A program made the position numbers and the translations under genes. A model generated the notes under the pieces. The model worked only from the letters and a program-made list of their open reading frames with translations. It was not told the origin of the DNA and did no database searches. This document shows positions 32,620-45,209 of a stretch of 47,571 nucleotides of DNA, piece after piece. The stretch is from UHGV virus genome UHGV-2008342; one strand, 5' to 3'. Source of the stretch: a virus. The stretch's first letter is position 1; the number at the start of each line of letters is the position of its first letter.

Positions 32620-33372
32620 TTATCTCGTCACCTTCCTCAATTGCGCTTCCGCGTATGCTTCTTCCTGCCAGCACTTTGTTACCAGTTTACCAATGACGTC
32701 CGCATACCCCTTATACCACTGATAATCGGTCAGGTCTGGTACCAGCTTCTGGACATGACGTCGTGCCAGCGTGGTCGGTAAACGACTAAACCGGTTTCCA
32801 TTACAACGCCCACAAATCTTATATACCGGTACGCCATGAAACCGGGTTCTTTTTTCATCCAGAACAATCCCTTTACCCTTACACCCTCTGCACGCTGTGC
32901 TGGTTTCGCCCTTACCATGGCAATGCTGACATAGTTCCTTCACCCATTCTTCCTTGATTACAGATTCCCCGCGTCTGTAGTGTTTCACCACTTCGCGCAA
33001 TACATTATAAAATCCCGTACCTGAACAATGCTCACAGCGAGCCTTACTTGCCGCAGACCTGGAGTAATCAGCAAAGGCAAAACTCACGAGGTAAGGAATA
33101 ATCTGTAACCGGATTTCTTCACTCAATTTGTTCAATGTCGGGTTATCCAGTGCCATCGCGTAATTTAGCAGGCCTTCAATCGCAAACTGAGGGTCCTGAA
33201 CACCAACTTTTGCCAGAAATAAGGCCAACCCAAGTGGTGCTTTCGACTGCACCATCCCCTGCGCTGCCATTACATCCGTAATTGTTAAACAACCGGTGCC
33301 TGTCGCTGGAGCGTCATCGCTCAATTTTGGAGATTTTGGGGAGTAATATTTTGGTAAGGCTTCAAGGTTCAT
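32620..33372 (-). CDS. quuQ: late-gene antiterminator Q
   Basis: 250 aa from MNLEALPKYY (ATG verified at 33370-33372). C-terminal Cys/His clusters CEHCSGTG...CQHCHGKGE...CRGCKGKG...CGRCNG. Position upstream of the lysis genes. Confidence 0.8.
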   Translation of the reverse strand: MNLEALPKYYSPKSPKLSDDAPATGTGCLTITDVMAAQGMVQSKAPLGLALFLAKVGVQDPQFAIEGLLNYAMALDNPTLNKLSEEIRLQIIPYLVSFAFADYSRSAASKARCEHCSGTGFYNVLREVVKHYRRGESVIKEEWVKELCQHCHGKGETSTACRGCKGKGIVLDEKRTRFHGVPVYKICGRCNGNRFSRLPTTLARRHVQKLVPDLTDYQWYKGYADVIGKLVTKCWQEEAYAEAQLRKVTR

Positions 33373-33385
33373 GCTCGTTCTCCAC

Positions 33386-34435
33386 TTACGCCAGTACGCC
33401 AATTGCCAGCGCGCGATCGATAAAACGAAATATCAGCTCCAGTTGGGAGCCATACTTATCTTCAAATGCCACTGTATCCGTATGCAGCTCGTTGTGATGC
33501 TTTCTGCACAAAGGCAACACAAAGAGATCATGTGCTTTTGTTCCCATTCCGCCCTGCCCGTGACCAATCAGATGATGCGGATCGTCGGCTGGCATACCGC
33601 AGCAAGCACACGGCTGTGTCTTAACCCAACGTGTGTATTTCTCCTTAACCCAGCGGCGACGTTTAGGCAGCTTCATGAAAGATTCCGGAGACTCTGGATC
33701 AACGGTGATGCTTACCACCGTCTTTTCCTGTGGTGATTTTTGTTGCTGGTGGGCGTAAGGCAACGGTGCAAGATTTTTTGTGCGTTGTTTCAATATGCTG
33801 GTGGCGGTCTGCTCTCCCGGTACGATGTCGCTTTCGCGGTACACCGAGCAGATTTTTTCCGCTGGTAATCCCAGCGAACGACGCGATACAGCCTCAGGTA
33901 GTGCATCCACCACCTGATTGCAGACCGCCCACCAGGATAATTCAGCCAAAGATAATTCCCGCTCCTGCGTACCGCTTATTGCGTGACGGATGACGTCAAT
34001 CACCCATGCTGTCAGATTTTGTTGAGCAAGCAGCTCCAGTGATTCCGATGTCTGGTCACGCAGTTGGTTGTCGCAGTGCCAGCACAACACCATTGCGCCG
34101 GTACCATAACGGTGAATGACTGTTTCAGTGTGATGGTAATCGCCATTAGGCCACTGGCAGGATGTAACATGACGTAATAGCCAGTCGGACAATGCGCCAA
34201 CGCCGCCAGCAGCACGAATCACCCGTTCGTTACTAAAAAACGGCAGCAATGTTTTGTCTTCCGCCAGCGGCTGGCGAACGGCAGGAACGACTCCGGATGG
34301 CAGATTACGCATGCTTTTTGGTTCCGGTTCCACCAGCACTCGAGGATTATGAAATATCTGTATGGATTCACGGCCCGGCTTAAGGACCACCAGCCCAAGC
34401 TCAGGCACCAGAACAGGTCTAAGTAATACCCGCAC
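33386..34435 (-). CDS. ydfU: YdfU-like protein (DUF968) with C-terminal Cys/His cluster
   Basis: About 349 aa with the GTG start chosen at 34435, directly after the upstream stop. The track ORF starts at another GTG at 34474. C-terminal motif CACCGMPADDPHHLIGHGQGG...CRKHHNELH. Confidence 0.55.
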   Translation of the reverse strand: MRVLLRPVLVPELGLVVLKPGRESIQIFHNPRVLVEPEPKSMRNLPSGVVPAVRQPLAEDKTLLPFFSNERVIRAAGGVGALSDWLLRHVTSCQWPNGDYHHTETVIHRYGTGAMVLCWHCDNQLRDQTSESLELLAQQNLTAWVIDVIRHAISGTQERELSLAELSWWAVCNQVVDALPEAVSRRSLGLPAEKICSVYRESDIVPGEQTATSILKQRTKNLAPLPYAHQQQKSPQEKTVVSITVDPESPESFMKLPKRRRWVKEKYTRWVKTQPCACCGMPADDPHHLIGHGQGGMGTKAHDLFVLPLCRKHHNELHTDTVAFEDKYGSQLELIFRFIDRALAIGVLA

Positions 34436-34436
34436 G

Positions 34437-34715
34437 TTACCTCCAGATCCGTTGCTGGAAAGTGCGGGACGCACGTGGTGGGCGTTCGGAATAAGGCAGC
34501 CTGACAGAGATTATCCAGTGCCGATAGTCGAGACTGAGAGCTTTCTTAACCTCGAACCCGCGCCTGCGGTAAGAATGAATCAGCCATTCGGCCTGTTCTG
34601 CAGTGCATGGAGGGTGCTGGAACCATTCAGACTTGAATGCGTGAGAATACCGCCCGTGCGTGCAGGCAAGAACGGGCGAATTATCAGAATTGTAATATTT
34701 TGCGTTGCGTGCCAT
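34437..34715 (-). CDS. hypothetical protein (92 aa)
   Basis: ORF MARNAKYYNSDNSPVLACTHGRYSHAFKSEWFQHPPCTAEQAEWLIHSYRRRGFEVKK... in operon context. No family recognised. Confidence 0.45.
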   Translation of the reverse strand: MARNAKYYNSDNSPVLACTHGRYSHAFKSEWFQHPPCTAEQAEWLIHSYRRRGFEVKKALSLDYRHWIISVRLPYSERPPRASRTFQQRIWR

Positions 34716-34781
34716 CGGTTTTCTCCGGTGGCACGGTGTTACTCAGCGGGAGTTCAGCCCCGCGCAAGATTGTAGATGAGT

Positions 34782-35033
34782 TTATTCTCCTGAAAAAGCA
34801 GAAAAGCCAGCTTTTATTCCGATCTCTTTCAATGCCTGTAATGAAGTGACAAACTCACCTTCGCGCAAGATAAATCCGTCCGTGACCCGAGCATCCACAA
34901 AATTAATTAACGCAGCCCCATTCTTTCGCAAACACATAATGCGGTAATGACTAACAAGATTTCCATTTTCAACGCACACAGCATAGAGGCCATCTTCACA
35001 AAAAATTTTACGCAGTTCTTCGATGTTCATCAT
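34782..35033 (-). CDS. hypothetical protein (83 aa), possibly the Rem equivalent
   Basis: ORF MMNIEELRKIFCEDGLYAVCVENGNLVSHYRIM... between ydfU and hokD. Length matches my recollection of K-12 Rem, but the sequence is not verified. Confidence 0.4.
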   Translation of the reverse strand: MMNIEELRKIFCEDGLYAVCVENGNLVSHYRIMCLRKNGAALINFVDARVTDGFILREGEFVTSLQALKEIGIKAGFSAFSGE

Positions 35034-35249
35034 CAGAATCCTTCCGGATAATTAGCTCTCCCCTTTAAGGGACCATCCCTCTTATCCCTGCGCGCTACTT
35101 AAGTATTTTTGATTCTATTCCGGCACCGTCCAGAACTTCAAACGCGTTGAAAATAAAAACAAAAACCCGCCGAAGCGGGTTAAGTGCGGGTGCGTTGAGG
35201 ATGCCTGCCACATCAGAGGTGGCGAGGGATTTCTCCCCCGCCGGGTCTC

Positions 35250-35405
35250 TTACTCCTCAGGTTCGTAAGCTGTGAAGACAGCGACCTCCGTCTGGCCGGT
35301 TCGGATTCGTACCTCGCAGAGGTCTTTCCTCGTTACCAGTGCCGTCACTATGACGGTTAAACAGATGACGATCAGGGCGATTAACATCGCCTTTTGCTGC
35401 TTCAT
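35250..35405 (-). CDS. hokD: Hok-family type I toxin
   Basis: Hand translation gives MKQQKAMLIALIVICLTVIVTALVTRKDLCEVRIRTGQTEVAVFTAYEPEE (51 aa). Below the track cutoff. Downstream of relE as in the relBEF operon. Confidence 0.85.
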   Translation of the reverse strand: MKQQKAMLIALIVICLTVIVTALVTRKDLCEVRIRTGQTEVAVFTAYEPEE

Positions 35406-35476
35406 AGCCTGCTTCTCCTGTCAACGCAAAGCAGAAGTGTCACCTTCGGTGCGAAACAGAGATGTCATGCTTTGGT

Positions 35477-35764
35477 TCAGAGAATGCGTTTGACCGCCTC
35501 GCTATATACTTCCGAGCGTTCTCTTTTCCCAACAGAAATCACGAAAACGACAACTTTCTCGTCTATAACCTGGTATACAAGGCGATAGCCTGAAGACCGG
35601 AGCTTAATCTTGTAACAATCAGGCATACCACGGAGCTTGTTTGCTTCAATCCGGGGTGACTCAAGTACTTCAACCAGCTTCTTTTTCAACTGTTCACGTA
35701 CCGTCGAGCCCAGCTTTCGCCATTCCTTTAGTGCCCGCTCGTCAAAATCCAGAAAATACGCCAT
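35477..35764 (-). CDS. relE: RelE mRNA interferase toxin
   Basis: 95 aa, MAYFLDFDERALKEWRKLGSTVREQLKKKLVEVLESPRIEANKLRGMPDCYKIKLRSSGYRLVYQV. Confidence 0.9.
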   Translation of the reverse strand: MAYFLDFDERALKEWRKLGSTVREQLKKKLVEVLESPRIEANKLRGMPDCYKIKLRSSGYRLVYQVIDEKVVVFVISVGKRERSEVYSEAVKRIL

Positions 35765-36003
35765 CAGAGTTCATCCAGCGTCACACGTACTGGCTTAGGA
35801 TTACGAAGCCGTTCTTTCACTATCTCCACAAGTTCAGCATCTTCATCACTCAGGAGTGTCTGTTTGAACGGCAAGCGTTCATTGTCAGCGATATACTCGA
35901 GCATGAGACGAAGCGCTTCAGAAGGAGTTACACCCATTTTTTCAAGCGCGGCGTAAGAACGCGCTTTAAGTTCATCGTCAATACGCAGGTTAATGCTACC
36001 CAT
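35764..36003 (-). CDS. relB: RelB antitoxin
   Basis: 79 aa, MGSINLRIDDELKARSYAALEKMGVTPSEALRLMLEYIADNERLPF. Confidence 0.9.
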   Translation of the reverse strand: MGSINLRIDDELKARSYAALEKMGVTPSEALRLMLEYIADNERLPFKQTLLSDEDAELVEIVKERLRNPKPVRVTLDEL

Positions 36004-36027
36004 GTCTTACACCTCTTGTAATTACAA

Positions 36028-36333
36028 ATGTCATTACAAGTATCGCACTACAACATGCTTAGGGCAAGTCACGAAGGAAGTCAGAAAGTAGTCGTAAGAA
36101 CGGTGATCACTGTCCGCTTTGTGCCAGGAGCAGCCATTGCTAAGTCCATCCTGTATTGTGCAGGTCAGCTCGTTTTTAAAGAGTCCGGCCATCATCTTAC
36201 TGGTACAGACACCATATACTTTGTGACGGTCAGGCTACATATGCACAACTCAACTTATTCATCTATTTTTTGCTTTAGCATGTCAGTGTTGCTTTCTCGT
36301 CGGCGGGTGAGCGGTGACCTGACCTGTCGATAA
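36028..36333 (+). CDS. ydfV: hypothetical protein at the ydfV position
   Basis: 101-aa ORF of weak coding appearance. Position and length match my recollection of K-12 ydfV. Confidence 0.35.
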   Translation: MSLQVSHYNMLRASHEGSQKVVVRTVITVRFVPGAAIAKSILYCAGQLVFKESGHHLTGTDTIYFVTVRLHMHNSTYSSIFCFSMSVLLSRRRVSGDLTCR

Positions 36334-36485
36334 AGGAACGTAGCACGTTTTATGCAACACCCGCATGCGGCAGAAAATTATTGCCGAACGTTTACCCCTG
36401 TCAACAAGCTTTACTTTCTGAGGCGCGCCAGCCCGCGAGGAAAACAATCTGAACATCAAACAATTAATGACACAAGAAATACGAT

Positions 36486-36512
36486 TAAAGATTTTTTTGT
36501 GCATGCCGATAG
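36486..36512 (+). promoter_or_regulatory. sigma-28 (FliA) type promoter upstream of flxA
   Basis: TAAAGATT, 11-nt spacer, GCCGATAG, against the consensus TAAAGTTT-N11-GCCGATAA. About 24 nt upstream of the flxA ATG. Confidence 0.65.
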
Positions 36513-36535
36513 TGCTTTTTTAAAAGGAGAAATCT

Positions 36536-36868
36536 ATGTCTGTCACAATTCAGGGAAATACCTCAACCGTTATTTCAAACAACTCCGCCCCGGAAGGAAC
36601 ATCAGAAATAGCCAAAATCACAAGACAAATTCAGGTGCTGACTGAAAAGCTTGGGAAAATCTCATCGGAAGAGGGGATGACGACACAGCAGAAAAAAGAA
36701 ATGGCTGCATTGGTACAGAAGCAAATTGAAAGCCTCAGGGCTCAACTGGAGCAGTTGTTAAGGCAGCAGGCAGAGAAAAAGAATAAAGACGCGACAGTTC
36801 AGCCTGATAAAAAAGAAGAGAAAAAAGACGATACAAATACCGCTGGCACCATTGATATTTACGTCTAA
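36536..36868 (+). CDS. flxA: FlxA (FliA-regulated prophage protein)
   Basis: 110 aa MSVTIQGNTSTVISNNSAPEGTSEIAKITRQIQVLTEKLGKISSEEG..., coiled-coil and Lys/Glu-rich. Confidence 0.8.
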   Translation: MSVTIQGNTSTVISNNSAPEGTSEIAKITRQIQVLTEKLGKISSEEGMTTQQKKEMAALVQKQIESLRAQLEQLLRQQAEKKNKDATVQPDKKEEKKDDTNTAGTIDIYV

Positions 36869-36882
36869 GTGACAGCCGTATT

Positions 36883-36905
36883 GTGGCCCTCATCGGGCCA
36901 CTTTT
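36883..36905 (+). terminator. intrinsic terminator after flxA
   Basis: Hairpin TGGCCC-TCATC-GGGCCA followed by CTTTT. Confidence 0.6.
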
Positions 36906-37249
36906 CGCCATCAGCCTTTTCTTTAAAGACATATTATCTTTGTATCATTTCTGATAGTTAACATTACAAGATATAAGTAATGGACGCACTCCCAATTAGT
37001 CTATTTAAATCGCCACGAGTTTAACTGACAACCCATGATCAATTATGAATTGCAACTATTTCTGTAGTCACTTTTGTGGGGACAGTCCACAAAACTGCCA
37101 ACTTCCGCTTCTTGCTCTTAGCGGACATTAGCATAGGCTATTTACCATAACGCCTCATTACGCGCACCGCCCAGACTGACTCAGCGCGTTTCTGGCATAT
37201 CCCCGGTAAAACAAGTAACAAACCACCCGAAAATGAACACCAGAAACGC

Positions 37250-38700
37250 GACTTAAGAATCTACCCTATGAATGGATATGCACTCAACCGAATCGATCTT
37301 GGTTTCAATCTTTTTTATCGGGATCAGGCTTCTTTTTAGGTAACTTCGGGGGCTTAACTTGCTGATGACTTTGCGTTCGGCGCGTAAGCCAGGGATGGTC
37401 AGCTTTAGGTTTAACATAGTATTTTGAGCGTAAATCAATACGGGCATTATCCACTCGTTCATGGACACTCTTTTCATCATCCAGTGGTATAGGCTCCGGG
37501 CCATCAACATACTTTTCCCAGCCCAGCGCTTTCCCGTCATACAGAACGTTAATTTCACCGTCAAAGTTCTCGCATACAGTAACAACCGAATGCCTAAGTC
37601 GATATCCCCGGCCCTCACTGCGTACCTGAAACGCACTGCTTTTGTACTGGAAAGTGAGATTTTTAGACAGAACGCGCTTCGCCTGTAGGCTGAAGATATA
37701 ACCCAGTTCCTCTTCAGAATGGTGCACATCAAGATGAGCATTATCAGTAGTACGAGGCGACGTAGCGAACCGGTTGTTATAGGCTTCAATAAAGGTCGGC
37801 AACCATGCATTTGCTGTTTCAATATCACTGATATTCTGAAGCCGCATTTCTTTGACCAGCCTGTCCTGTAGTGTCTGATTGGCGCGCTCTACCCGCCCTT
37901 TTGCCTGCGGGCTGTTGGCATGGATTGGCTCGATGCCCAGTGTCTTTATCGCACGAGTGAACTGGGTCAGCTCACCTTCCCGCTCTGGGTTATTTACCCT
38001 GAATATACTGTGTCTATCAGAGTAGAGAGCGAGCGGTACGCCATGATCATTAAGGTAACCCCGGAGGGTTTCCATGTAAGCCCGGGTTGTTTCAGCAGGC
38101 ACAAAACGCAACGCCATCAACGCACTGGTGGTATCATCAATGAAAACGATCAGTGTACATCTGGGGCCTCGATTTTCAAACCAGTCATGAGGTGAGCCAT
38201 CAATCTGGATCAGTTCACCGTAAGATGGTCGTCGCATGCGGCGTTGATATATACGGGCAATTTTACGACGGCGTTCACGCCATACCCCCCTCTTCTATCA
38301 TCCACTTTCTGAGAGTTTCAACGGATAAAGATAAACCGTGTATCTCGCGCAATTTTTCGCACGCAAACGTAGGTCCAAAATCAGCGTAACGGCCTTTGAG
38401 GAGTGAAATTACTGTTGCTCTGAATTCAGTAGAAAAGGAATTATTAGGACGCTTTCCACGTCGGTGGGAAACCAGACCAGAAGGCCCTTCATTTCTATAC
38501 CGTTGCACCAGACGTTTAACCTGCCGAATAGAAATGCCAATGCGTGCCGCAGCTTGTTCCTGAGTAATATGTCGATTAATTGACTCCTGAATAATCTGAA
38601 GTCGGTGGAGTTCCTTATGACTCATCGTAACAGTTTCTTTGGTCATGAAAAATCCCCCAGAGAATTGTCTGGGGACATTTTAGAATGGTTCAAAGGGGAC
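37250..38700 (-). mobile_element. insertion sequence with HTH plus rve-type DDE transposase; family not determined, ends approximate
   Basis: Transposase-like coding region 37305-38646 in the flxA-to-replication interval, where I recall no IS in K-12 Qin. Terminal inverted repeats not identified by eye. Confidence 0.6.
37305..38646 (-). pseudogene. transposase split into an HTH ORF (38275-38646) and an rve/integrase-core ORF (37305-38237) by a frame change at a G6 run
   Basis: The HTH frame ends ...KWMIEEGGMA-stop. The catalytic frame is open upstream of its ATG (VWRERRRKIARIYQRRMRRPSYGELIQIDGSPHDWFENRG) and carries DDE-type residues and the SPQAKGRVERANQTLQDRL motif. The frames meet at GAGGGGGGT. 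Confidence 0.6.
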
Positions 38701-38980
38701 ATTACAGCTTGGTGTTAACAATAGCCTGCTTCTCCTTGCCTTTCGGCACGTAAGAGGCTAACCTACATGTGTCTGGCATGAAATTGGCCTCAGATTAATG
38801 TTAAGCGTCTTGCAGGACGCGTAATGTTAACTGGGGCTTTTCTCTACCTGCCGTTGGTGTTCGTGCCCGAGGCAGATAGCCTCAAGCACCCGCAGTCATT
38901 CTACTTAACTAAGATTTCCCCGCAAACCGTTTTTGTCCAGCACAGTAAATATCCAACTAAACCAATGGAGTTCGCTGTAT

Positions 38981-39199
38981 TTACCGCCAGTATTCAATGC
39001 ACATGACCGCCATGAACACCCCTAAAAAAAGGGCATTTATATATCCAAATATTAATATCAAAACATCAACTTTTTCCATATACCTTGCTGTGAAGATGAT
39101 GGGCATACATGATGCGAACAACCAGAACGCAACAAACAAAAACTGCAATGCGTTTTTCATTATTCCTCCTACAATCAATGTGCAATTACATTTAAACAC
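38981..39199 (-). CDS. hypothetical small membrane protein
   Basis: 72-aa ORF with two hydrophobic segments. No supporting context. Confidence 0.2.
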   Translation of the reverse strand: MFKCNCTLIVGGIMKNALQFLFVAFWLFASCMPIIFTARYMEKVDVLILIFGYINALFLGVFMAVMCIEYWR

Positions 39200-39414
39200 A
39201 CCTCAATTTGGCCGGACATATAAATAGCTAAACCAGAAAAAATCACTTACATAGCGTTACAAACTCTTTAGTCTAAAGGTTCATCGTAAAACATTCCCCA
39301 TACTTATCAGTCCGTTCCGCGCCAGGTAGCTCATTGCCTTATCTGGCAACCTGTAATCAGGTTTCCGCTTTTTCAGTTGGCTGGTCGTTTAACCGACATA
39401 GTTAACCCATTAAT

Positions 39415-39702
39415 CTAGTTGCCGGATGTTGGTGGATTTTCGCGTTTTAGTTGTTCATAAAAGTGCACAGCTTTAACCAATTCTTCTGATGTAACCGGGA
39501 CTGGTGAGGCAGTGAATAAGGCCTGAATTTGATAGTTCGGCCTGTCGTTACAATCCTCTTTTTTCGGTACATATTTCCAGTCACCAGACCACTACTTCCC
39601 CTGAAAGTCCGTAACGCCTTTTTTCACGTAGCGATATCGCCATGTCACTGGTTTTGCTTGCCCCGCCGTTTCATGCCCTTCCTGATAATTAATCTCGCTC
39701 AT
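39415..39702 (-). pseudogene. small phage gene (about 95 codons) with one in-frame TAG at codon 37
   Basis: Hand translation: MSEINYQEGHETAGQAKPVTWRYRYVKKGVTDFQGK-TAG-WSGDWKYVPKKEDCNDRPNYQIQALFTASPVPVTSEELVKAVHFYEQLKRENPPTSGN. The frame stays open for 57 codons after the TAG. Its ATG overlaps the upstream stop as ATGA. Confidence 0.4.
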
Positions 39703-39890
39703 TCATCGCCCCACTCATCACAATATGCTTCGACCGGAGTTTTTCCCGCTTCATAGTCATCACGCTAGGATTCGACATCAGCAGCACTTCCACCGCGTAA
39801 CTCACCATAGTCCATTAATAGTTCATCCCGCTCTTCAAAACTGATGTTATATTTAGCTGAACAAAAATCAGCCACTTTGTTCTTCCTCAT
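39699..39890 (-). pseudogene. small acidic phage gene (63 codons) with in-frame TAG at codon 42
   Basis: Hand translation: MRKNKVADFCSAKYNISFEERDELLMDYGELRGGSAADVES-TAG-RDDYEAGKTPVEAYCDEWGDE. The stop overlaps the start of the next gene. Confidence 0.35.
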
Positions 39891-39939
39891 CGTCTTTTAT
39901 TTCGTGGTATGAGTAATTGCAGTAGTTAAAGAAAATTTC

Positions 39940-40050
39940 TTATGCTCCGTCATGAATTTCATCAGGTGTTGCGTCATCGTCCACTTCGAATACATCCTCA
40001 AAATCTCCACCAGCTATTCCCGTTTCAATAATAATTTTGAACTTTCGCAT
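39940..40050 (-). CDS. candidate 36-aa acidic small protein
   Basis: MRKFKIIIETGIAGGDFEDVFEVDDDATPDEIHDGA with GGTAGTGAA upstream of the ATG. Same strand as the neighbouring small genes. Confidence 0.2.
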   Translation of the reverse strand: MRKFKIIIETGIAGGDFEDVFEVDDDATPDEIHDGA

Positions 40051-40222
40051 TTCACTACCGCCCTTTCGGGCGGCCTCCTGATGTTCTGAGGGTGCAGAAA
40101 TCCATCCGGTTAAGGATTAAGTTTTATTTACAGAACTGAATTTAATTATTCAGATATACGTATCTGTAACCTTACGAATCTACTCACTGGATGCCTCTTT
40201 CATAAAAATAATCCAGTGGGTT

Positions 40223-40669
40223 TTATCGTTTTTTCCCTGTTCGTTGACAGATAACAGGCTTTCTATCTGTCAGTGCCAGAATCTGGCTTACCGGTATTTG
40301 CGTTTCATTCCATTAAAAAATCAGAACGCCGTGCGGCCTCAACACCCGAAAAGCTTCTTTAAATCTCTGTCGCAAATCATCACGCCAGGCATCTTTATTC
40401 AGCCGTCCATATTTCTTTCCCATCCAGGCGTTATCACCAACACGCTCAAGATGCGGAGGGTCTAATACAACCATCGAAAAAGATGCGTCTGCAAATGATA
40501 ATGCACGAAAATCTGCGATAATGTCAGGGCTGATAATCAAGCGTCTCCCATTGCGTAATGTGTATCCTTCTTTTCTGATATCGCTAAATATCGCCCGTTC
40601 GTCAGACTTATCGAACCAGAACATGCGGCTGCCACAGCACATATCAAGAATGGTTGCCGGTGCACTCAC
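40223..40669 (-). pseudogene. SAM-dependent DNA methyltransferase interrupted by an in-frame TAA
   Basis: 118-aa ORF with a DMCCGS motif-I-like segment and a DPPH motif-IV-like segment, ending ...HGVLIF-TAA. The same frame continues WNETQIPVSQILALTDRKPVICQRTGKKR for 29 codons. Confidence 0.55.
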
Positions 40670-41088
40670 TGCGCCACGTCCTGAAAATTACCCTGATAGA
40701 AAGCCAGTATGCGCTGCATAACTTCGCTCTTCCGGCACTCGCGACAGATTATGTTTAGGCGACTGTCGTAGCGACGTATTTCTCCGTCAGGTGATGACCA
40801 GATAAGGTCCGGATCAACCACAGCAGGTTTCTTCACCTTTGCCCTCGAGAGTTTTTTGCGGGCGTTTTGCCAGTCCTTACGCGCCTGTTCAGAGGGGAAT
40901 AACCCGTAGCCGGAGTTGTATACATCGCCACTGGCTACCAGCTCTCTGGCAAGAACGCTCATCAGATATCTAGTCGCACCTGTTTTAGCTTCCAGTTGCC
41001 GTAACGTCTCACGGCCGCTCTGGCGCACGAGTTCCACCACCTGCCATTTAATTTTTTCCCGCTCTTCTTGTGTAAAAACTTTTGCCAC
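40666..41088 (-). CDS. hypothetical protein (140 aa) immediately downstream of the O-like gene, in the position of a helicase loader
   Basis: MAKVFTQEEREKIKWQVVELVRQSGRETLRQLEAKTGATRYLMSVLARELVASGDVYNSGYG... No Walker motifs, so not P-like or DnaC-like. Confidence 0.5.
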   Translation of the reverse strand: MAKVFTQEEREKIKWQVVELVRQSGRETLRQLEAKTGATRYLMSVLARELVASGDVYNSGYGLFPSEQARKDWQNARKKLSRAKVKKPAVVDPDLIWSSPDGEIRRYDSRLNIICRECRKSEVMQRILAFYQGNFQDVAQ

Positions 41089-41128
41089 AAGTCCCCCTTA
41101 AAATTACCTCATGACCTGAAATCAACAC

Positions 41129-42148
41129 TTATCCTCTGAAACCAGGCGGAATTTCTGTATCCGGTTCAGAAATATGATTAACACAACGCTGCACAGGTGA
41201 ACGTCCCAGGCGGATGACCAGTTCGTCCCATTTTTCGCGGAGCTTTGACGGGCTCATGATGTTTTTTACCCAGAATGGATCTCGCTGAACCCGACCAAAC
41301 ATTTCGCAAATTTGTCTGTGGCTTCTGCCATCCAGCATCCGCATTGTGCGCACGTCATTGGCCCAGGCAGTCCAGTTAGGCTCTTTTGGTCGCATGATCT
41401 CGCCATCATCACTGGCTGCCTGTTCGTAGAGACCCACGATCCGCCCCCAGATCCACTGCGCACACGCCAAATCCTCCCTGCTACCCCACTGGCGTTTTTT
41501 CGCACTAAACACAACCGCGTCGGAGTTCCGGGTTAAAAAATCCTGTTCAGTCGTCTGCGGGTCCGGTTGCGAAGCTTCCGGACGAAAAGTGTTTTTATTC
41601 TCTGTAGTAATCTCTGTTGTATTCTCTGTAAGATCATCAGGCCATTTTGACCCGATGACATTGGGTCGTTTTGAACCAATGGAGCGTTTCATTTTGACCT
41701 CTTCCATCGTGTCATTTTGACCTGATGGAGCGGCGCATTTTGAACCGATGGATTCGCTCAATTTGCCACCATCTAAAAGCTCGCTCCCATAGTTGATCGT
41801 GTAGAAATTGGTCATATCGCGCTTTGATTTATTGAGCTTTTCACAACGCAAAAGCCCCAGCGTTTTCAGACTTGCAAACGCGCGCTTTAACGTTGACTCT
41901 GACCAGAATGGGAACTGTTCCAGCCATTGTTCCGTTGTGTTATAAATCCAGCGAACACCATCACATTCCATGCCGGAGTTGGTATCTCTCAACCAGTAGT
42001 GCAGTTGTTGCAAAACAATGGCTTCGTTTAAGCCAATTTTCATTGCCAGCTGCGTGTTTATAACCAGTGGGCGTTCAGCAAAAAGAAGGCTCATAATTCC
42101 ATCCAGCTTTTTGTTGGTATTGCTGTCGATACGCAAGCTTGAAAGCAA
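41129..42148 (-). CDS. replication initiator, lambda O-like replisome organiser
   Basis: 339-aa ORF in the lambda O position. Iteron-type direct repeats and an AT-rich tract lie inside the coding sequence. Start may be an internal Met (MSLLFAERPLV at 42094). Confidence 0.65.
   Translation of the reverse strand: MLSSLRIDSNTNKKLDGIMSLLFAERPLVINTQLAMKIGLNEAIVLQQLHYWLRDTNSGMECDGVRWIYNTTEQWLEQFPFWSESTLKRAFASLKTLGLLRCEKLNKSKRDMTNFYTINYGSELLDGGKLSESIGSKCAAPSGQNDTMEEVKMKRSIGSKRPNVIGSKWPDDLTENTTEITTENKNTFRPEASQPDPQTTEQDFLTRNSDAVVFSAKKRQWGSREDLACAQWIWGRIVGLYEQAASDDGEIMRPKEPNWTAWANDVRTMRMLDGRSHRQICEMFGRVQRDPFWVKNIMSPSKLREKWDELVIRLGRSPVQRCVNHISEPDTEIPPGFRG
41585..41780. repeat. ori: candidate origin of replication: 5-6 iterons with a roughly 24-bp period plus an adjacent AT-rich tract with short repeats
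   Basis: Repeats CCATTTTGACCCGATG / GTCGTTTTGAACCAATGGAG / TTCATTTTGACCTCTTCCATCG / GTCATTTTGACCTGATGGAG / GCATTTTGAACCGATGGA at 41641-41760. Then TTCTCTGTAGTAATCTCTGTTGTATTCTCTGTAAG at 41585-41640. Confidence 0.65.
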
Positions 42149-42596
42149 TTGCTTTTTCTATAAGTTCGTCAGTTTCACGATCCACTACGGCAGGATCAGC
42201 AAAAAGCAGTCCGGACTCCACCACATCGCCATATTCTTTGTTTAACCCGGCGATCATGCACGTGATGCTTTTTCCGTCAGTAATTTCACGATACAACCTG
42301 AAATCACTAATCCGGATAGCCTCCATAATCGCAGGCACTAGCGCCGTGAACTTTTCACGCTTATCCCTGGTGTCGATAGCCTTCCAGCGTTCGAATATCT
42401 TCACTCGATTAACACCAAGCGCTCGCTGATCAACCGCGCCACCTTCATCTGTGACACGCTGAACATCGATGTTCGGGCGCTCTTTCAAAGCCCAGAATGC
42501 TTCAGTGATTAATATCGTCGCCTGCTCCTGTGTCATTCCTGGTCGACATATCCAGGCATCCAGAGCCTCACGAGCCTGTTCAGGAGTGATTTTCAT
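42075..42596 (-). CDS. early protein in the cII/YdaT position between the cro-like gene and O
   Basis: 173-aa ORF MKITPEQAREALDAWICRPGMTQEQATILITEAFWALKERPNIDVQRV... Its length (96+77) suggests it is the intact form of the K-12 ydfX/ydfW fragments; that is inference. Confidence 0.5.
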   Translation of the reverse strand: MKITPEQAREALDAWICRPGMTQEQATILITEAFWALKERPNIDVQRVTDEGGAVDQRALGVNRVKIFERWKAIDTRDKREKFTALVPAIMEAIRISDFRLYREITDGKSITCMIAGLNKEYGDVVESGLLFADPAVVDRETDELIEKAIAFKLAYRQQYQQKAGWNYEPSFC

Positions 42597-42810
42597 TGTT
42601 CAACCGCCCCGCCCGCTTCGTCTTACGATATTCATCATAAACTTTGGGATCATACTGAAGCTCCCCGCCAGATGCCTCCTGTAGACGCATCGCGCGACCT
42701 TCGGGAACTAAATCCCCTTTCCAGCTATAAAGCGAAGCCAAACGAATACCTGCTGCTTGTGCAAGTTTTGTTTTTGAACCGAAATACAAAAGAGCGTCAG
42801 TTTTAAGCAT
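42580..42810 (-). CDS. dicC: DicC, cro-like regulator
   Basis: 76 aa MLKTDALLYFGSKTKLAQAAGIRLASLYSWKGDLVPEGRAMRLQEASGGELQYDPKVYDEYRK. Divergent from dicA. Confidence 0.85.
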   Translation of the reverse strand: MLKTDALLYFGSKTKLAQAAGIRLASLYSWKGDLVPEGRAMRLQEASGGELQYDPKVYDEYRKTKRAGRLNNENHS

Positions 42811-42893
42811 TTAAAACACCTTTATTGTTAGTCATAACTAACAAGATAGATGTTAACAAAAACATAGTCAATACGATTTAGCATTAGCTAACT
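42811..42893. promoter_or_regulatory. dicA-dicC divergent promoter and operator region
   Basis: Perfect 20-bp palindrome TTGTTAGTCATAACTAACAA at 42825-42844 and palindrome TTAGCATTAGCTAA at 42878-42891. A related half-site TGTTAGTCAT lies downstream of dicA near 43372. Confidence 0.6.
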
Positions 42894-43301
42894 ATGGAAA
42901 CAAAAAATTTAACTATCGGCGAACGCATCAGGTATCGTCGGAAAAACCTCAAACACACCCAAAGGTCTCTTGCTAAAGCCCTGAAAATCTCCCATGTGTC
43001 TGTATCACAATGGGAACGGGGTGATAGTGAACCTACAGGGAAGAACCTTTTTGCCCTCAGCAAAGTATTGCAATGCTCACCAACATGGATTCTATTTGGC
43101 GATGAAGACAAGCAACCAACACCACCTGTTGAGAAGCCAGTTGCCTTATCCCCCAAAGAACTAGAGCTCCTTGAGCTGTTTAATGCACTGCCAGAATCAG
43201 AACAGGATACCCAGCTCGCCGAAATGCGAGCTCGAGTAAGAAACTTCAATAAACTCTTTGAAGAATTACTAAAAGCCCGTCAGCGGACAAATAAAAGATA
43301 A
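42894..43301 (+). CDS. dicA: DicA, HTH-XRE repressor
   Basis: 135 aa METKNLTIGERIRYRRKNLKHTQRSLAKALKISHVSVSQWERGDSEPTGKNLFALSKVLQCSPTWILFG. Confidence 0.9.
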   Translation: METKNLTIGERIRYRRKNLKHTQRSLAKALKISHVSVSQWERGDSEPTGKNLFALSKVLQCSPTWILFGDEDKQPTPPVEKPVALSPKELELLELFNALPESEQDTQLAEMRARVRNFNKLFEELLKARQRTNKR

Positions 43302-43467
43302 CATCATCAATGAGTTATCTTTTACCACATCAATTATGTTAGCTATAGCATACAAAATCACTTGACCGATATGTTAGTCATGGCTAATCTTGTTTGCATC
43401 AACACACCGCACGGTGTTCTCAGCAAACAGTTCCGCTACCCCAGCGTTAAGGGGAAATGAGGTCAGC

Positions 43468-43623
43468 ATGGATACTATCGATCTTGGCAACAACGAATCT
43501 CTGGTGTACGGCGTGTTTCCAAACCAGGACGGTACGTTCACCGCGATGACGTATACCAAAAGCAAAACGTTTAAAACCGAAAATGGTGCCCGTCGCTGGC
43601 TGGAAAGAAACTCAGGTGAGTGA
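43468..43623 (+). CDS. ydfA: YdfA
   Basis: 51 aa MDTIDLGNNESLVYGVFPNQDGTFTAMTYTKSKTFKTENGARRWLERNSGE. ATG at 43468 with a GGGGAAATGAGG SD. Confidence 0.8.
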   Translation: MDTIDLGNNESLVYGVFPNQDGTFTAMTYTKSKTFKTENGARRWLERNSGE

Positions 43624-43624
43624 T

Positions 43625-43753
43625 ATGGATTTCGACACAATCATGGAAAAGGCTTACGAAGAATACTTCGAAGGTCTTGCCGACGGCGAAGAAGCTCTCA
43701 GCTTCAACGAATTTAAACAGGCGCTTTCCAGTTCGGCAAAATCTAACGGCTGA
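43625..43753 (+). CDS. ydfB: YdfB
   Basis: 42 aa MDFDTIMEKAYEEYFEGLADGEEALSFNEFKQALSSSAKSNG. Starts 2 nt after the ydfA stop. Confidence 0.75.
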   Translation: MDFDTIMEKAYEEYFEGLADGEEALSFNEFKQALSSSAKSNG

Positions 43754-43782
43754 TAAGCGAAACAGCACCGCGAGGAATCAGT

Positions 43783-44001
43783 ATGCAGAAACGAGAACCC
43801 GTCATCATCGCGCCAGACTATACCGATGATGAACTTTATGAGTGGATGCGCCAGAAAATTAATGCAGCGCAGGATCTGAAATGGGCCAATGAAGCCAGGG
43901 CTAAGCAGGCTGAAAATCTGTCCGCTCTGGAGCAGGATATCACCAGGCTGGAAAAAGCAGCGGCATTAAGCATTGCAAGAATGATTACATACCCACGTTA
44001 A
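43783..44001 (+). CDS. ydfC: YdfC
   Basis: 72 aa MQKREPVIIAPDYTDDELYEWMRQKINAAQDLKWANEARAKQAENLSALEQDITRLEKAAALSIARMITYPR. Confidence 0.8.
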   Translation: MQKREPVIIAPDYTDDELYEWMRQKINAAQDLKWANEARAKQAENLSALEQDITRLEKAAALSIARMITYPR

Positions 44002-44023
44002 TAGCTAACCAACGAGGCTAATA

Positions 44024-44431
44024 ATGGAATTTAAAGATTTACCAAAAGAAATCCAGACAATTGCTGCAACGACTCTCGGTGATAGTCTGGTGAAAATTGA
44101 CCCGGCATACACCAAAAAAGAAACCATCGATAATATGGTTTGTAATGTGCGCAATGCTTTTTCTGGGCTATATGGTTCTGATAATCAAAAGCAGGAAAGC
44201 GATGTTAATAAACGGGTAATTTCTGTTTGCGTGAATGGCCATGTTCTTTCATCAATCAAAACAGAAACGGCGACAGTCTTCGATTGCCTTTGCATTGTAC
44301 AGAGCCTTGTTGATGCCCTGTTTCGTTCAGTGAATTTAGAAAATGATGCAAATCTGCGAGGGCGCACAATAGCACATCCATATGCACATACTTTAGGCTC
44401 TGTGGATATCAAAGATCCCACAAATCTTTAA
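44024..44431 (+). CDS. hypothetical protein A (135 aa), part of a low-GC insert in the dicB operon
   Basis: ORF MEFKDLPKEIQTIAATTLGDSLVKIDPAYTKKETIDNMVCNVRNAFSGLYGSDNQKQ... No family recognised. From memory, not present between ydfC and dicF in K-12. Confidence 0.5.
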   Translation: MEFKDLPKEIQTIAATTLGDSLVKIDPAYTKKETIDNMVCNVRNAFSGLYGSDNQKQESDVNKRVISVCVNGHVLSSIKTETATVFDCLCIVQSLVDALFRSVNLENDANLRGRTIAHPYAHTLGSVDIKDPTNL

Positions 44432-44642
44432 TGAAATAGTTAACGCGAATTGTACTTGCTCTTTCAGTTGCTTTCAGAATACGCGTTGAAACTGCTGGCG
44501 GTAATTTGGTATTCCATTTATTAAAATCATGCCCGGGAAAGTACTCTTCGAAAATACTTTTAACTGCAGACTCGCCTATTGAAATGCTGCTTACCATGCG
44601 ATTTTGATAAAGGCATTTAGCAATAAGAGTTGATTTTAACAT
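44409..44642 (-). CDS. hypothetical protein B (77 aa), convergent with A and overlapping it by 23 bp
   Basis: ORF MLKSTLIAKCLYQNRMVSSISIGESAVKSIFEEYFPGHDFNKWNTKLPPAVSTRILKATERASTIRVNYFIKDLWDL. Antisense to the surrounding early operon. Confidence 0.45.
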   Translation of the reverse strand: MLKSTLIAKCLYQNRMVSSISIGESAVKSIFEEYFPGHDFNKWNTKLPPAVSTRILKATERASTIRVNYFIKDLWDL

Positions 44643-44974
44643 TCACCCTCCTGAGGGTTGGTAATTAAGGAGTTCTCCACGGGTGAAGTGGAGTGCGTGC
44701 GCCGGACACGGGTGAACATCCGGCACTGACAGTTTACTGAAAGGATATATCCCTGAAAAGTCAGGGCATAACGCGAAAGCGCACGGCGAGGTAGCTGGTT
44801 CATAGATAGCCTGTCGTTAAATTTTCGTCGACCGTGCGCTTCCGGTTGTGGCAATCCGCGAAATGGCGCGGCGGTAAGTATGGCGGGGTTATTCCTTACC
44901 CCCATTGGTGGCACCGGGTTGTCAGGTTGACCATACGCCTGAGTGACAACCCCGCTACAACAACCCATGTTGAT

Positions 44975-45028: not shown

Positions 45029-45209
45029 AAAGTGAATTTTGTGATGCGGTGAATGCGGCTCAGCGCACGCGGAACAGTTAAAAAGCGATTAGTTCCCCCG
45101 TATCGGGTGTTTATGGGTTTCCCTGTATCCGGCGTTAATTGTTAACTGGTTAACGTCACCTGGAGGCACCAGGCACCGCATCACAAAATTCATTGTTGAG
45201 GACGCGATA

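What the first reader, a model, noticed from the sequence alone, without database searches (positions are those of the whole stretch)
38700..40669. Decayed nin-like module: three consecutive genes each with a single in-frame stop
Between the IS element and the replication genes, three adjacent minus-strand genes each carry exactly one in-frame stop: the methyltransferase (TAA at 40313-40315, frame open for 29 more codons), a 63-codon acidic ORF (TAG at 39765-39767) and a 95-codon ORF (TAG at 39592-39594, frame open for 57 more codons). The latter two are coupled by an ATGA overlap. The rest of the prophage, about 45 kb, has intact reading frames, so the clustering is notable. It may reflect local decay around the IS insertion, or assembly errors.
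Basis: seen in the sequence. Interest (0 to 1): 0.45.

Follow-up and report, generated by a model that had tools for sequence, protein, structure and literature searches.

The report
Dead early genes in Qin prophage
Four small neighbouring early genes of a Qin-type E. coli prophage have been knocked out by stop codons and frameshifts; the lesions are real, shared by hundreds of sequenced strains and already flagged as pseudogenes in RefSeq, so this is ordinary prophage decay.

Summary
The window is a full-length Qin-type lambdoid prophage, 99.6% identical to E. coli IAI1.

Between the replication genes and a split hok/sok locus, four consecutive minus-strand genes are dead:
- a DNA methyltransferase: TAA plus a 1-nt insertion;
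- a 58-codon gene: TAG, with its start changed from ATG to GTG;
- a PHROG-660 gene: two TAGs, a 4-nt deletion and a 90-nt deletion.

Intact syntenic alleles in other E. coli prophages show that each stop replaces a sense codon. 32 of the 40 complete genomes listed carry a 100% identical module, 317 records are at least 99% identical, and all four relatives read at 98.9-100% carry the lesions. This excludes assembly error. RefSeq already marks three of the genes as pseudogenes.

Lineage-specific substitutions show relaxed constraint and no significant excess of stops. K-12 Qin has deleted the whole module. All 61 other genes tested in the window read without a stop.

Verdict: known, ordinary decay of dispensable accessory genes; the IS is not shown to be the cause. 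More interesting in passing: the "IS" is the arm of a 3.3-kb ISEsa1 transposon carrying relBE that repeatedly targets hok start regions.

The parts
40180..40669 (-). Pseudogene of a roughly 160-aa class I SAM-dependent (PHROG 954 'DNA') methyltransferase. Nonsense TAA at 40313-40315 (K119, AAA in intact alleles). A 1-nt insertion in the G run 40235-40237 gives a shifted-frame stop at 40223-40225. The ancestral stop is at 40180-40182.
   Evidence: Alignments to intact alleles in Stx2c phage L004 and E. coli 181.1 L009. The repaired product hits PHROG 954 with E=1e-81 across both lesions. About 7,000 homologs were found, and nearly all of the 120 listed are 155-259 aa and cover 92-100% of the repaired product. 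The only one shorter than 155 aa, P0020 (133 aa), is itself a frameshifted fragment of this lineage. PGAP labels it 'frameshifted; internal stop' in IAI1.
39868..40050 (-). Pseudogene of a 60-aa acidic DUF7167 protein. Nonsense TAA at 39940-39942 (K37, AAA in intact alleles).
   Evidence: Pfam DUF7167 E=2e-13 and PHROG 1997 E=2e-29 on the repaired product. Alignment to L003, L005 and L009. AAA in 92 and TAA in 25 of the sampled IMG/VR contigs. PGAP labels it 'internal stop'.
39699..39875 (-). Pseudogene of a 58-aa acidic protein (C-terminal part of PHROG 519). Nonsense TAG at 39765-39767 (W37, TGG in intact alleles). The start codon has changed from ATG to GTG at 39875. The upstream in-frame ATG at 39890 is lineage-specific. 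The stop overlaps the next start (ATGA).
   Evidence: TGG in 94 and TAG in 26 of 120 IMG/VR contigs.
39281..39702 (-). Pseudogene of a PHROG-660 protein of unknown function. TAG at 39592-39594 (codon 37; ATG, CCG, CTG, TGG or CAG elsewhere). A 90-nt deletion at 39439/39438. A second TAG at 39414-39416 (CAG in L009). A 4-nt deletion at 39384/39383. The ancestral stop is at 39281-39283. The A6 run at 39620-39625 varies from A5 to A8 among carriers of the TAG haplotype.
   Evidence: PHROG 660 E=3e-28 for this copy and 1e-42 for the intact L005 copy. Alignments. Haplotype table. PGAP labels it 'frameshifted; internal stop' over 39281-39702.
38720..38891 (-). Orphaned 5' regulatory part of a hok locus (sok antisense RNA and mok/hok leader), cut off from its hok coding sequence.
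   Evidence: Rfam RF01794 sok, 99.8 bits (gathering score 59), full model 1-157. The locus is contiguous with hok in phages L003 and L009.
35404..38736 (-). A 3,301-bp ISEsa1 (IS1202-family) based transposon at 35420-38720. It holds the left inverted repeat, a transposase frameshifted here into 123 + 310 aa (its last 49 codons are 'ydfW'), flxA, ydfV, relB, relE and the right inverted repeat. It is flanked by perfect 16-bp direct repeats AGGAGAAGCAGGCTAT (38736-38721 and 35419-35404), which are the Shine-Dalgarno sequence and first two bases of the hokD start codon.
   Evidence: Direct repeat D6. 99.7% identity to plasmid ISEsa1 copies. The whole unit is 99.5-99.9% identical on 16 plasmids. 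Different 16-bp duplications flank it in pndA and IncF hok targets.
35250..35405 (-). hokD coding sequence, now downstream of relBE instead of its own sok/mok leader.
   Evidence: 100% identical to IAI1 HokD. Junction sequences.

Best explanation
The region is a block of four adjacent, translationally coupled accessory early genes of a Qin-type lambdoid prophage. The genes encode a small DNA methyltransferase, DUF7167, a 58-aa acidic protein and a PHROG-660 protein. All four have become pseudogenes through ordinary point mutations and small indels.

Shown:
- Every stop replaces a sense codon of intact homologs.
- Two of the genes carry several redundant lesions.
- The lesion set is fixed in a prophage lineage present in hundreds of E. 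coli genomes.
- The lineage shows a raised non-synonymous to synonymous ratio.
- Other strains have gone on to hit the block with IS elements or delete it outright. K-12 Qin lacks window 37490-42316.

Inferred:
- The genes are dispensable both for the lysogen and for whatever phage functions are still under selection. Purifying selection therefore lapsed on them alone, while the structural, lysis, immunity, replication and host-useful genes stayed constrained.
- Mosaic recombination among lambdoid prophages moves dead and live alleles around as blocks.
For: - Identity of the locus: the window is 99.6% identical to IAI1 Qin over 36 kb, with the dicA/dicC, relBE/hokD and csp genes.
- Sense-to-stop changes and indels were defined against intact syntenic alleles.
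- Family profiles span the lesions.
- Full-length homologs of the methyltransferase are abundant, and nearly all of the 120 listed are 155-259 aa.
- 32 of the 40 listed complete genomes carry a 100% identical module, 317 records are at least 99% identical, and 377 of 5,426 genomes carry at least 80% of the block.
- The lesions were verified in IAI1, ECOR13 PhiR42_1, strain 537-20 and GZ04-0086.
- The lesions are linked in 24-26 IMG/VR contigs.
- PGAP already annotates three of the genes as pseudogenes.
- Window-lineage-specific missense to synonymous changes are 30:25 in the four genes, 4:8 in the flanking DUF977 gene and 6:14 on the intact L009 branch.
- Pairwise dN/dS is 0.15-0.23 in the four genes and 0.10 in the control, with similar dS, so there is no local hypermutation.
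- Nonsense changes are 4 of 34 non-synonymous changes, against 6% expected (P about 0.14), so stops are not significantly in excess.
- Of 61 other genes tested, none has a stop and 57 align full length.
- Further decay elsewhere: K-12 has a 4.8-kb deletion. Strain AH21 has an IS1 and GZ04-0086 an ISEc22 in or next to the block. The A run is polymorphic from A5 to A8. Protein P0020 has GAA at the stop position but keeps the frameshift.
Against: - It is odd that at least 8 lesions accumulated here while about 44 kb of structural and lysis genes kept open frames. Neutral decay explains this only if those genes are still under selection or were recently replaced by recombination, and neither was tested here.
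- Pairwise dN/dS is well below 1, so most of the divergence predates inactivation and the neutral phase looks short for so many lesions.
- A divergent phage (L005) has TAG at the same codon of the 58-aa gene. That could hint at recurrent selected knock-outs.
- No expression or phenotype data are available.
Confidence: 0.85

Rival explanations
1. Adaptive gene loss: each of the four genes was harmful to the lysogen, so null alleles were positively selected rather than drifting to fixation. Examples of harm would be an orphan methyltransferase provoking methyl-dependent restriction by McrBC or Mrr, or small acidic host-takeover proteins leaking from the early promoter.
For: - Four neighbouring genes each have their own independent null mutation, while 61 other genes tested in the window show no stop.
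- A TAG occurs at the same codon of the 58-aa gene on a divergent haplotype in phage L005.
- The TAG haplotype of the PHROG-660 gene is found in 56 of 105 sampled contigs.
- The toxicity of foreign methylation in Mcr+/Mrr+ hosts is general knowledge. It was not tested here.
Against: - Nonsense changes are not significantly over-represented among non-synonymous changes: 4 of 34 against 6% expected, P about 0.14.
- Two genes carry 2 and 4 redundant lesions, as expected for drift after the first hit.
- All carriers of the PHROG-660 TAG share one local haplotype, which means a single origin spread by recombination, not recurrence.
- Intact alleles of all four genes are common in other E. coli prophages.
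Confidence: 0.1
2. Decay triggered by the neighbouring mobile element. The insertion of the ISEsa1-relBE transposon between the early operon and Q grounded the prophage or altered transcription, and this removed selection on the upstream accessory genes.
For: - In sampled viral contigs, 19 of the 21 lesion-bearing copies with enough flank have the ISEsa1 junction. 55 of 70 copies with the intact TGG allele have an uninterrupted hok locus.
- The transposon lies between the early genes and the Q homolog ydfT.
Against: - The association is what linkage in a single lineage would give.
- Recombinant L029 carries the transposon with intact DUF7167 and 58-aa alleles.
- The PHROG-660 TAG haplotype is frequent without the transposon.
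- The replication genes O-like, DUF977 and ydaT, which lie upstream in the same operon, are intact.
- The transposon is 99.5-99.9% identical to plasmid copies. The dead block differs by 4-12% from the nearest intact alleles.
Confidence: 0.04
3. Sequencing or assembly errors in this one assembly.
For: None beyond the a priori possibility. The methyltransferase TAA and frameshift do lie in short homopolymer runs (T6, G3A6).
Against: The same bases are found in 32 of the 40 listed complete genomes at 100% identity, from many laboratories and hosts. They are also in IAI1, ECOR13 and 24-26 IMG/VR contigs.
Confidence: 0.005
4. Programmed recoding or suppression: the stops are read through or bypassed to give functional proteins. 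A variant is a local hypermutation process, such as a deaminase or a diversity-generating retroelement, that made the stops.
For: The TAA of the methyltransferase lies in a T-rich run (ATTTTTTAATGG), and an A run precedes the PHROG-660 TAG.
Against: - Two kinds of stop (TAA twice, TAG three times) plus two out-of-frame indels (a 1-nt insertion and a 4-nt deletion) cannot be rescued by one mechanism.
- A -1 or +1 shift at the T run meets a stop within a few codons (read).
- No A-run length from A5 to A8 restores the PHROG-660 frame.
- The window has no tRNA gene, so there is no phage-encoded suppressor.
- Intact homologs have sense codons at all sites.
- The mutation spectrum is mixed (A to T twice, G to A, C to T) and dS equals that of the flanking gene.
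Confidence: 0.005

Closest known systems
Cryptic prophage Qin of E. coli K-12 (dicA-dicC ... relBE-hokD ... cspB/F/I) and its full-length form in E. coli IAI1
   Same: Same element and same chromosomal neighbourhood (ydfJ side). Identity to K-12 is 99.9% over window 33131-37489 and 98.7% over 42317-44021. Identity to IAI1 is 99.6% over 36 kb. The IAI1 RefSeq record already marks the methyltransferase, DUF7167 and PHROG-660 genes as pseudogenes.
   Different: K-12 has lost window 37490-42316. The deletion runs from inside the ISEsa1 transposase, leaving 'ydfW', to inside ydaT, leaving 'ydfX'. The dead block is therefore absent from K-12. The window keeps all head, tail and lysis genes.
nin region of phage lambda (dispensable genes between replication gene P and Q)
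   Same: Same position and orientation in the early rightward operon. Both are made of small, overlapping, translationally coupled ORFs. That the lambda region is dispensable comes from my own knowledge (the nin5 deletion) and was not tested here.
   Different: No sequence relationship was found. The genes here are a class I SAM methyltransferase (PHROG 954), DUF7167, PHROG 519 and PHROG 660, and no Nin family was hit. Here the genes are dead, not merely dispensable.
Intact syntenic module in E. coli strain 181.1 (NZ_CP059907) and phage vB_EcoS-640R1
   Same: Same gene order: DUF977, methyltransferase, DUF7167, 58-aa gene, PHROG-660 gene, hok. Nucleotide identity is 88-96%.
   Different: The methyltransferase (157 aa), DUF7167 (60 aa) and the 58-aa gene are open, and the hok locus is uninterrupted. 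Even there the PHROG-660 gene is damaged: by its own stop in 181.1, and by the TAG plus an A8 frameshift in 640R1.
ISEsa1, IS1202 family (ISfinder entry as summarised in PMC10132070)
   Same: Window 37100-38720 is 99.5-99.7% identical to plasmid ISEsa1 copies. A 16-bp target duplication is one of the lengths known in the family.
   Different: The paper lists ISEsa1 as 1609 bp with no detectable target duplication. Here the unit bounded by duplications is 3.3 kb and includes flxA-ydfV-relBE. The targets are hok-family start regions, not dif-like sites.
Chromosomal hok/sok loci of E. coli inactivated by insertions; relBE integration into hokD (Ramisetty and Santhosh 2016, as cited in PMC6379469)
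   Same: The hok locus is split from its sok/mok leader by inserted DNA that carries relBE.
   Different: Here both halves of the locus and the exact junctions are visible. This is not possible in K-12, where the sok half is deleted.

Membership tests
Unitary pseudogenes (coding sequences disabled by nonsense or frameshift mutation) | Intact full-length homologs exist and the stop aligns to a sense codon | tested here: met
   AAA to TAA (methyltransferase K119 and DUF7167 K37), TGG to TAG (58-aa gene W37) and CAG to TAG (39414-39416), relative to L004, L003, L005 and L009. Nearly all of the 120 listed methyltransferase homologs are 155-259 aa.
Unitary pseudogenes (coding sequences disabled by nonsense or frameshift mutation) | The lesion is real, that is, reproduced in independent assemblies | tested here: met
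   32 of the 40 listed complete genomes are 100% identical and 317 records are at least 99% identical. 24-26 IMG/VR contigs carry the linked lesions.
Unitary pseudogenes (coding sequences disabled by nonsense or frameshift mutation) | Relaxed selective constraint after inactivation | tested here: met
   Lineage-specific missense to synonymous changes are 30:25, against 4:8 in the flanking control and 6:14 on the intact L009 branch. Redundant second lesions occur within two of the genes. Numbers are small, and pairwise dN/dS is only 0.15-0.23.
Unitary pseudogenes (coding sequences disabled by nonsense or frameshift mutation) | No functional full-length product is made | not testable with these tools
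   Needs proteomics or ribosome profiling. The 118-aa N-terminal methyltransferase fragment could still be made, and some RefSeq records annotate it as a protein (WP_001310834.1).
Qin-type lambdoid prophage | DicA/DicC immunity region, relBE-hokD, csp genes, synteny and near-identity with K-12 Qin, same chromosomal flank (ydfJ) | tested here: met
Lambda nin region genes (NinA-NinI) | Sequence homology to Nin proteins | tested here: not met
   Pfam and PHROG scans of the repaired products give methyltransferase, DUF7167, PHROG 519 and PHROG 660, and no Nin family. The resemblance is positional only.
Programmed recoding sites (read-through or frameshift) | The stop or shift site is conserved among homologs, and a downstream frame gives the conserved protein after one recoding event | tested here: not met
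   Homologs have sense codons. Several different lesions per gene would each need rescue. There is no suppressor tRNA in the window.
DNA methyltransferase (amino-methyltransferase type) | SAM-binding motif I and catalytic DPPH/DPPY motif IV; a demonstrated DNA substrate | tested here: inconclusive
   The motifs DMCCGS and DPPH are visible in the translation. PHROG 954 'DNA methyltransferase' scores E=1e-81. Pfam N6_N4_Mtase scores only 16 bits, below its cut-off. There is no close solved structure and no NCBIfam match. The substrate is not established.
IS1202-family element (ISEsa1) | Family transposase, imperfect terminal inverted repeats, and a target duplication of a family-typical length | tested here: met
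   Identity to annotated ISEsa1 is 99.7%. The ends match at 20 of 28 positions with a 1-nt offset. Perfect 16-bp duplications flank the 3.3-kb unit in three different targets. The transposase is frameshifted in this copy.
[quoted passage not shown] | sok RNA and mok/hok leader contiguous with the hok coding sequence | tested here: not met
   The sok model matches fully at 38720-38891, but the hokD coding sequence lies 3.3 kb away at 35250-35405, behind relBE.

The most novel reading that the evidence does not exclude
The decayed genes themselves hold nothing new. The most novel reading concerns their neighbour.

The 'IS element' that bounds the block is the left arm of a 3.3-kb ISEsa1-based transposon: left inverted repeat, transposase, flxA, ydfV, relB, relE, right inverted repeat. 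This transposon inserts site-specifically into the Shine-Dalgarno and start-codon region of hok-family toxin genes and makes a 16-bp target duplication.

If so, three things follow:
- The classic E. coli K-12 relBE toxin-antitoxin locus and the relBE-hokD ('relBEF') operon are the product of a hok-targeting transposon.
- K-12 'ydfW' is the tail of its transposase.
- ISEsa1 was reported to lack target duplications because its right end was drawn too short.

A weaker alternative novel reading is that the four knock-outs were positively selected, that is, domestication by targeted loss of toxic early genes.
Probability: 0.6. Interest if true: 0.45.

Novelty: already known. Interest (0 to 1): 0.12.

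Why it matters
The finding as stated matters little. It is a well-documented example of prophage domestication in a well-known element, Qin, and RefSeq already annotates three of the four genes as pseudogenes.

Its uses are practical:
- It shows these stops are not assembly errors to be 'polished away'.
- It gives the exact ancestral codon for each lesion.
- It shows an intermediate stage of Qin decay. In IAI1-like strains the block is dead but present. In K-12 it is deleted.
- It shows that dead alleles circulate among lambdoid prophages by recombination. One nonsense haplotype is in about half of the sampled relatives.

The adjacent transposon observation would matter more to people working on toxin-antitoxin systems and insertion sequences. 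It offers a concrete, testable origin for the K-12 relBE-hokD arrangement, and a target specificity for ISEsa1-type elements.

Tried and rejected
- Sequencing error: rejected after megablast against 5,426 complete E. coli genomes and after reading four independent relatives.
- 99%-identical hits annotated 'class I SAM-dependent methyltransferase': I suspected intact alleles, but the annotated protein is the truncated 118-aa ORF with the same TAA.
- Phage-encoded suppressor tRNA: none in the window.
- Frameshift rescue at the T run and A run: read by eye and by translation. No frame restores the conserved protein.
- Local hypermutation: dS in the dead genes (0.14-0.42) brackets that of the flanking DUF977 gene (0.32), and the stop-creating changes have a mixed spectrum.
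- Excess of nonsense changes as a sign of selection: 4 of 34 against 6% expected, not significant, and biased by how the region was chosen.
- Ordering the lesions in time: the only intermediates found were protein P0020 (GAA at the TAA site, frameshift kept) and contig L029. L029 turned out to be a recombinant with a breakpoint near 39750, not an ancestor.
- Literature on phage PhiR42_1 (ECOR13), to learn whether this prophage is inducible: nothing found.
- Function of the methyltransferase: no close solved structure and no NCBIfam family.
- Function of the 72-aa membrane ORF at 38981-39199: no family in Pfam, PHROGs or NCBIfam.
- Right end and duplication of the larger nickel/chromate-cargo ISEsa1 variant: the right end again abuts a hok start region, but the left flank does not repeat it, so there is no duplication in that copy.

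Full report
**What is in the sequence**

- TAA at 40313-40315 closes a 118-codon ORF that starts at GTG 40669.
- TAG at 39765-39767 interrupts a short acidic ORF.
- TAG at 39592-39594 interrupts the ORF that starts at 39702 and overlaps the previous stop by ATGA.

The frame after the last TAG is open for 58 codons, not 57.

The ORF from 40050 has TAA at 39940-39942 and continues in frame to 39868.

**Where the window comes from**

The module is 100% identical to 32 of the 40 complete E. coli genomes listed, and 317 records are at least 99% identical. At least 80% of it is present in 377 of 5,426 genomes.

The surrounding annotation in E. coli IAI1 shows that the window is a full-length form of the cryptic prophage Qin. 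It has the ydfJ flank, tail, head and terminase genes, lysis genes, cspB/F/I, a Q homolog, rem, hokD, relBE, flxA, then the region of interest, then an O-like replication gene, ydaT, dicC, dicA, dicB and exonuclease. The window matches IAI1 at 99.6% over 36 kb.

In IAI1, NCBI's pipeline already annotates three pseudogenes here: a SAM-dependent methyltransferase ('frameshifted; internal stop'), a DUF7167 protein ('internal stop') and a hypothetical protein ('frameshifted; internal stop'). The phage record PhiR42_1 from ECOR13, 98.9% identical, carries the same lesions.

**The ancestral state of each lesion**

The best comparator is E. coli strain 181.1. It has the same gene order (DUF977, methyltransferase, DUF7167, 58-aa gene, PHROG-660 gene, hok) with open frames. 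Alignments to it, to phages vB_EcoS-640R1 and vB_EcoM-606R7, and to an Stx2c phage give the following.

| Gene | Lesions in the window |
|---|---|
| Methyltransferase | AAA (Lys119) to TAA. An extra G in the run at 40235-40237 shifts the frame and gives the stop at 40223-40225. Removing the G restores the conserved C-terminus, which ends at 40180. |
| DUF7167 | AAA (Lys37) to TAA. |
| 58-aa gene | TGG (Trp37) to TAG. Start ATG to GTG at 39875. |
| PHROG-660 gene | TAG at codon 37, where relatives have ATG, CCG, CTG, TGG or CAG. A 90-nt deletion at 39439/39438. CAG to TAG at 39414-39416. A 4-nt deletion at 39384/39383. The ancestral frame ends at 39281. |

The repaired products match their families across the lesions:
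- PHROG 954 'DNA methyltransferase', E=1e-81.
- DUF7167, E=2e-13 (Pfam) and PHROG 1997, E=2e-29.
- PHROG 519.
- PHROG 660.

A search of 5.8 billion proteins found about 7,000 homologs of the repaired methyltransferase. Nearly all of the 120 best listed are 155-259 aa and cover 92-100% of it. The one shorter than 155 aa, P0020, is a frameshifted fragment of this same lineage.

**Is it chance or error?**

I tested 61 IAI1 proteins against the window.
- None shows a stop.
- 57 align full length.
- Four align only partly, in segments that diverge from IAI1 or at the window end.
- Minor tail protein L, a pseudogene in IAI1 and so outside this test, reads open at 232 aa in the window.

The only other lesion is a 1-nt frameshift in the ISEsa1 transposase. 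At least eight lesions in 1.39 kb against one in 46 kb is about 1e-10 under a uniform model, a post hoc figure.

Independent assemblies agree base for base, so error is excluded.

**Neutral decay or something else?**

Pairwise dN/dS against strain 181.1 is 0.15-0.23 for the four genes and 0.10 for the flanking DUF977 gene. dS is similar in both, so there is no local hypermutation.

Polarising changes with outgroups gives the following counts of changes unique to each branch.

| Branch and genes | Missense | Synonymous |
|---|---|---|
| Window lineage, four dead genes | 30 | 25 |
| Window lineage, DUF977 control | 4 | 8 |
| Intact 181.1 branch | 6 | 14 |

Constraint was therefore relaxed for part of the window branch.

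Random substitutions in these genes give about 6% stops among non-synonymous changes. The observed 4 of 34 is not a significant excess (P about 0.14), and the region was chosen for its stops.

The stop-creating changes have a mixed spectrum: A to T twice, G to A, and C to T.

No tRNA gene is present in the window. Neither a shift at the T run of the methyltransferase nor any observed A-run length restores a conserved frame.

I therefore reject recoding and hypermutation. Selected loss remains a minor rival.

**Population picture**

A pattern scan of IMG/VR returned 120 viral contigs that carry the 58-aa gene. Reading the lesion sites in them gave the following.

| Site | Lesion allele | Intact or other alleles |
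|---|---|---|
| 58-aa gene, codon 37 | TAG in 26 | TGG in 94 |
| DUF7167, codon 37 | TAA in 25 | AAA in 92 |
| Methyltransferase | TAA plus frameshift in 24 | intact in 1 |
| PHROG-660 gene, codon 37 | TAG in 56 of 105 | sense codons in 49 |

The first three lesions are linked in one lineage.

All 56 PHROG-660 TAG copies lie on one local haplotype, whose upstream A run varies from A5 to A8. This means a single old null allele spread by recombination and still decaying.

Two further observations:
- Contig L029 has the same PHROG-660 pseudogene, sok remnant and transposon as the window, but intact DUF7167 and 58-aa alleles. Its mismatches place a recombination breakpoint near 39750.
- Phage vB_EcoM-606R7 has TAG at the same codon of the 58-aa gene on a divergent background. 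TGG is one of the few codons that a transition turns into a stop, so this may be a coincidence.

**Later stages of decay**

K-12 MG1655 Qin matches the window up to 37489 and resumes at 42317. A 4.8-kb deletion has removed most of the IS, the sok remnant, the dead block, DUF977, the O-like gene and part of ydaT, leaving 'ydfW' and 'ydfX'. Other strains show IS1 or ISEc22 in or beside the block, or only partial coverage of it.

This fits the published view that cargo genes of lambdoid prophages are less conserved than structural genes (Bobay et al. 2014, as quoted in PMC6379469).

**Role of the IS**

I found no evidence that the IS caused the decay. The lesions are small mutations, the association with the IS is what linkage in one lineage would give, and L029 breaks that association.

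The IS did prove interesting in itself.
- Rfam finds a complete sok model at 38720-38891, ending exactly at the IS junction.
- A perfect 16-nt direct repeat lies at 38736-38721 and 35419-35404 (AGGAGAAGCAGGCTAT on the minus strand). It flanks 3,301 bp containing the ISEsa1 transposase, flxA, ydfV, relB and relE. The second copy runs straight into the hokD start codon.
- Phages with an uninterrupted hok locus align across the gap.
- The same 3.3-kb unit, 99.5-99.9% identical and with an intact 446-aa transposase, is on 16 plasmids.
- In IncI plasmids it sits in pndA, flanked by ATGGAGGGGCTATGAT. In IncF Enterobacter plasmids it sits in a hok gene, flanked by AGGAGAAGAAGGCCAT. One plasmid has a second element inserted at the same 16 bp.
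- A 12.8-kb relative with nickel and chromate resistance cargo also ends, relBE-side first, at a hok start region. That copy has no duplication.

The literature already says that relBE integrated into hokD from plasmids (PMC6379469). It lists ISEsa1 as 1609 bp with no target duplication (PMC10132070). The 16-bp duplications, the passenger genes and the hok targeting may therefore be new details. I followed this lead only partly.

**Verdict**

The interpretation 'local decay' is right, 'assembly error' is wrong, and 'caused by the IS' is unsupported. These are ordinary, already annotated pseudogenes in a well-known prophage.

Noticed in passing
window 35404-38736: A 3,301-bp unit (ISEsa1 transposase, flxA, ydfV, relB, relE) is flanked by perfect 16-bp direct repeats and splits the hokD coding sequence from its sok/mok leader. 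The same unit sits in pndA of IncI plasmids and in hok of IncF plasmids, each with its own 16-bp duplication at the equivalent start-codon position. It appears to be a hok-targeting transposon that carries relBE.
   Followed up: partly
window 37305-37454; K-12 locus L135 4175-4359: The K-12 gene 'ydfW' is the last 49 codons of the ISEsa1 transposase. K-12 Qin has a 4.8-kb deletion of window 37490-42316, from inside the transposase to inside ydaT (leaving 'ydfX'). The deletion removes the whole decayed block and the replication genes.
   Followed up: yes
window 38237-38278: The ISEsa1 transposase of this copy is split into 123-aa and 310-aa ORFs. The cause is a 1-nt difference from plasmid copies, which encode an intact 446-aa protein at 99.7% DNA identity.
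   Followed up: partly
window 39592-39630; loci L010-L129: The TAG allele of the PHROG-660 gene lies on a single haplotype present in 56 of 105 sampled IMG/VR contigs. Its upstream A run varies between A5 and A8. The A8 form fuses the N-terminus to a 50-codon out-of-frame basic tail, which phage records annotate as an 85-aa protein.
   Followed up: partly
L005 (phage vB_EcoM-606R7) about 2830-2850, aligned to window 39765-39767: A divergent phage (90% identity) has TAG at the same Trp codon of the 58-aa gene as the window, on a different local haplotype. This may be a parallel mutation.
   Followed up: no
window 38981-39199 (minus strand): A 72-codon ORF (59 aa from its ATG) predicts a small hydrophobic two-helix protein between the dead block and the sok remnant. 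The DNA there is 96% conserved in phage vB_EcoS-640R1. It has no hit in Pfam, PHROGs or NCBIfam.
   Followed up: partly
L134/L136 (plasmid pMS7884B, NZ_CP022534, about 105918-118759): An ISEsa1 left end with the same transposase is followed by ncrYCBA (nickel) and chrBA (chromate) resistance genes. It ends about 12.8 kb away with relBE and the same right end, which abuts a hok start region. This suggests a family of ISEsa1 transposons with variable cargo and relBE always next to the right end. The left flank does not repeat the target here.
   Followed up: partly
window 44022-44655 and 44656-47571: Relative to IAI1 and K-12, the window has about 630 extra bases after ydfC, including a 135-aa ORF at 44024-44431. 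The dicB-exonuclease side is only 86-87% identical, so it is a mosaic segment. A sub-threshold Rfam hit to STnc100 lies at 45035-45187. No DicF hit passed E=0.01.
   Followed up: no
L009 (E. coli 181.1) 3266-3739 and 2429-2773: Even the 'intact' comparator is not pristine. Its methyltransferase ends five codons early (GAG to TAG near the C-terminus), and its PHROG-660 gene has its own premature TAG. This gene family seems to be decaying in several lineages.
   Followed up: no
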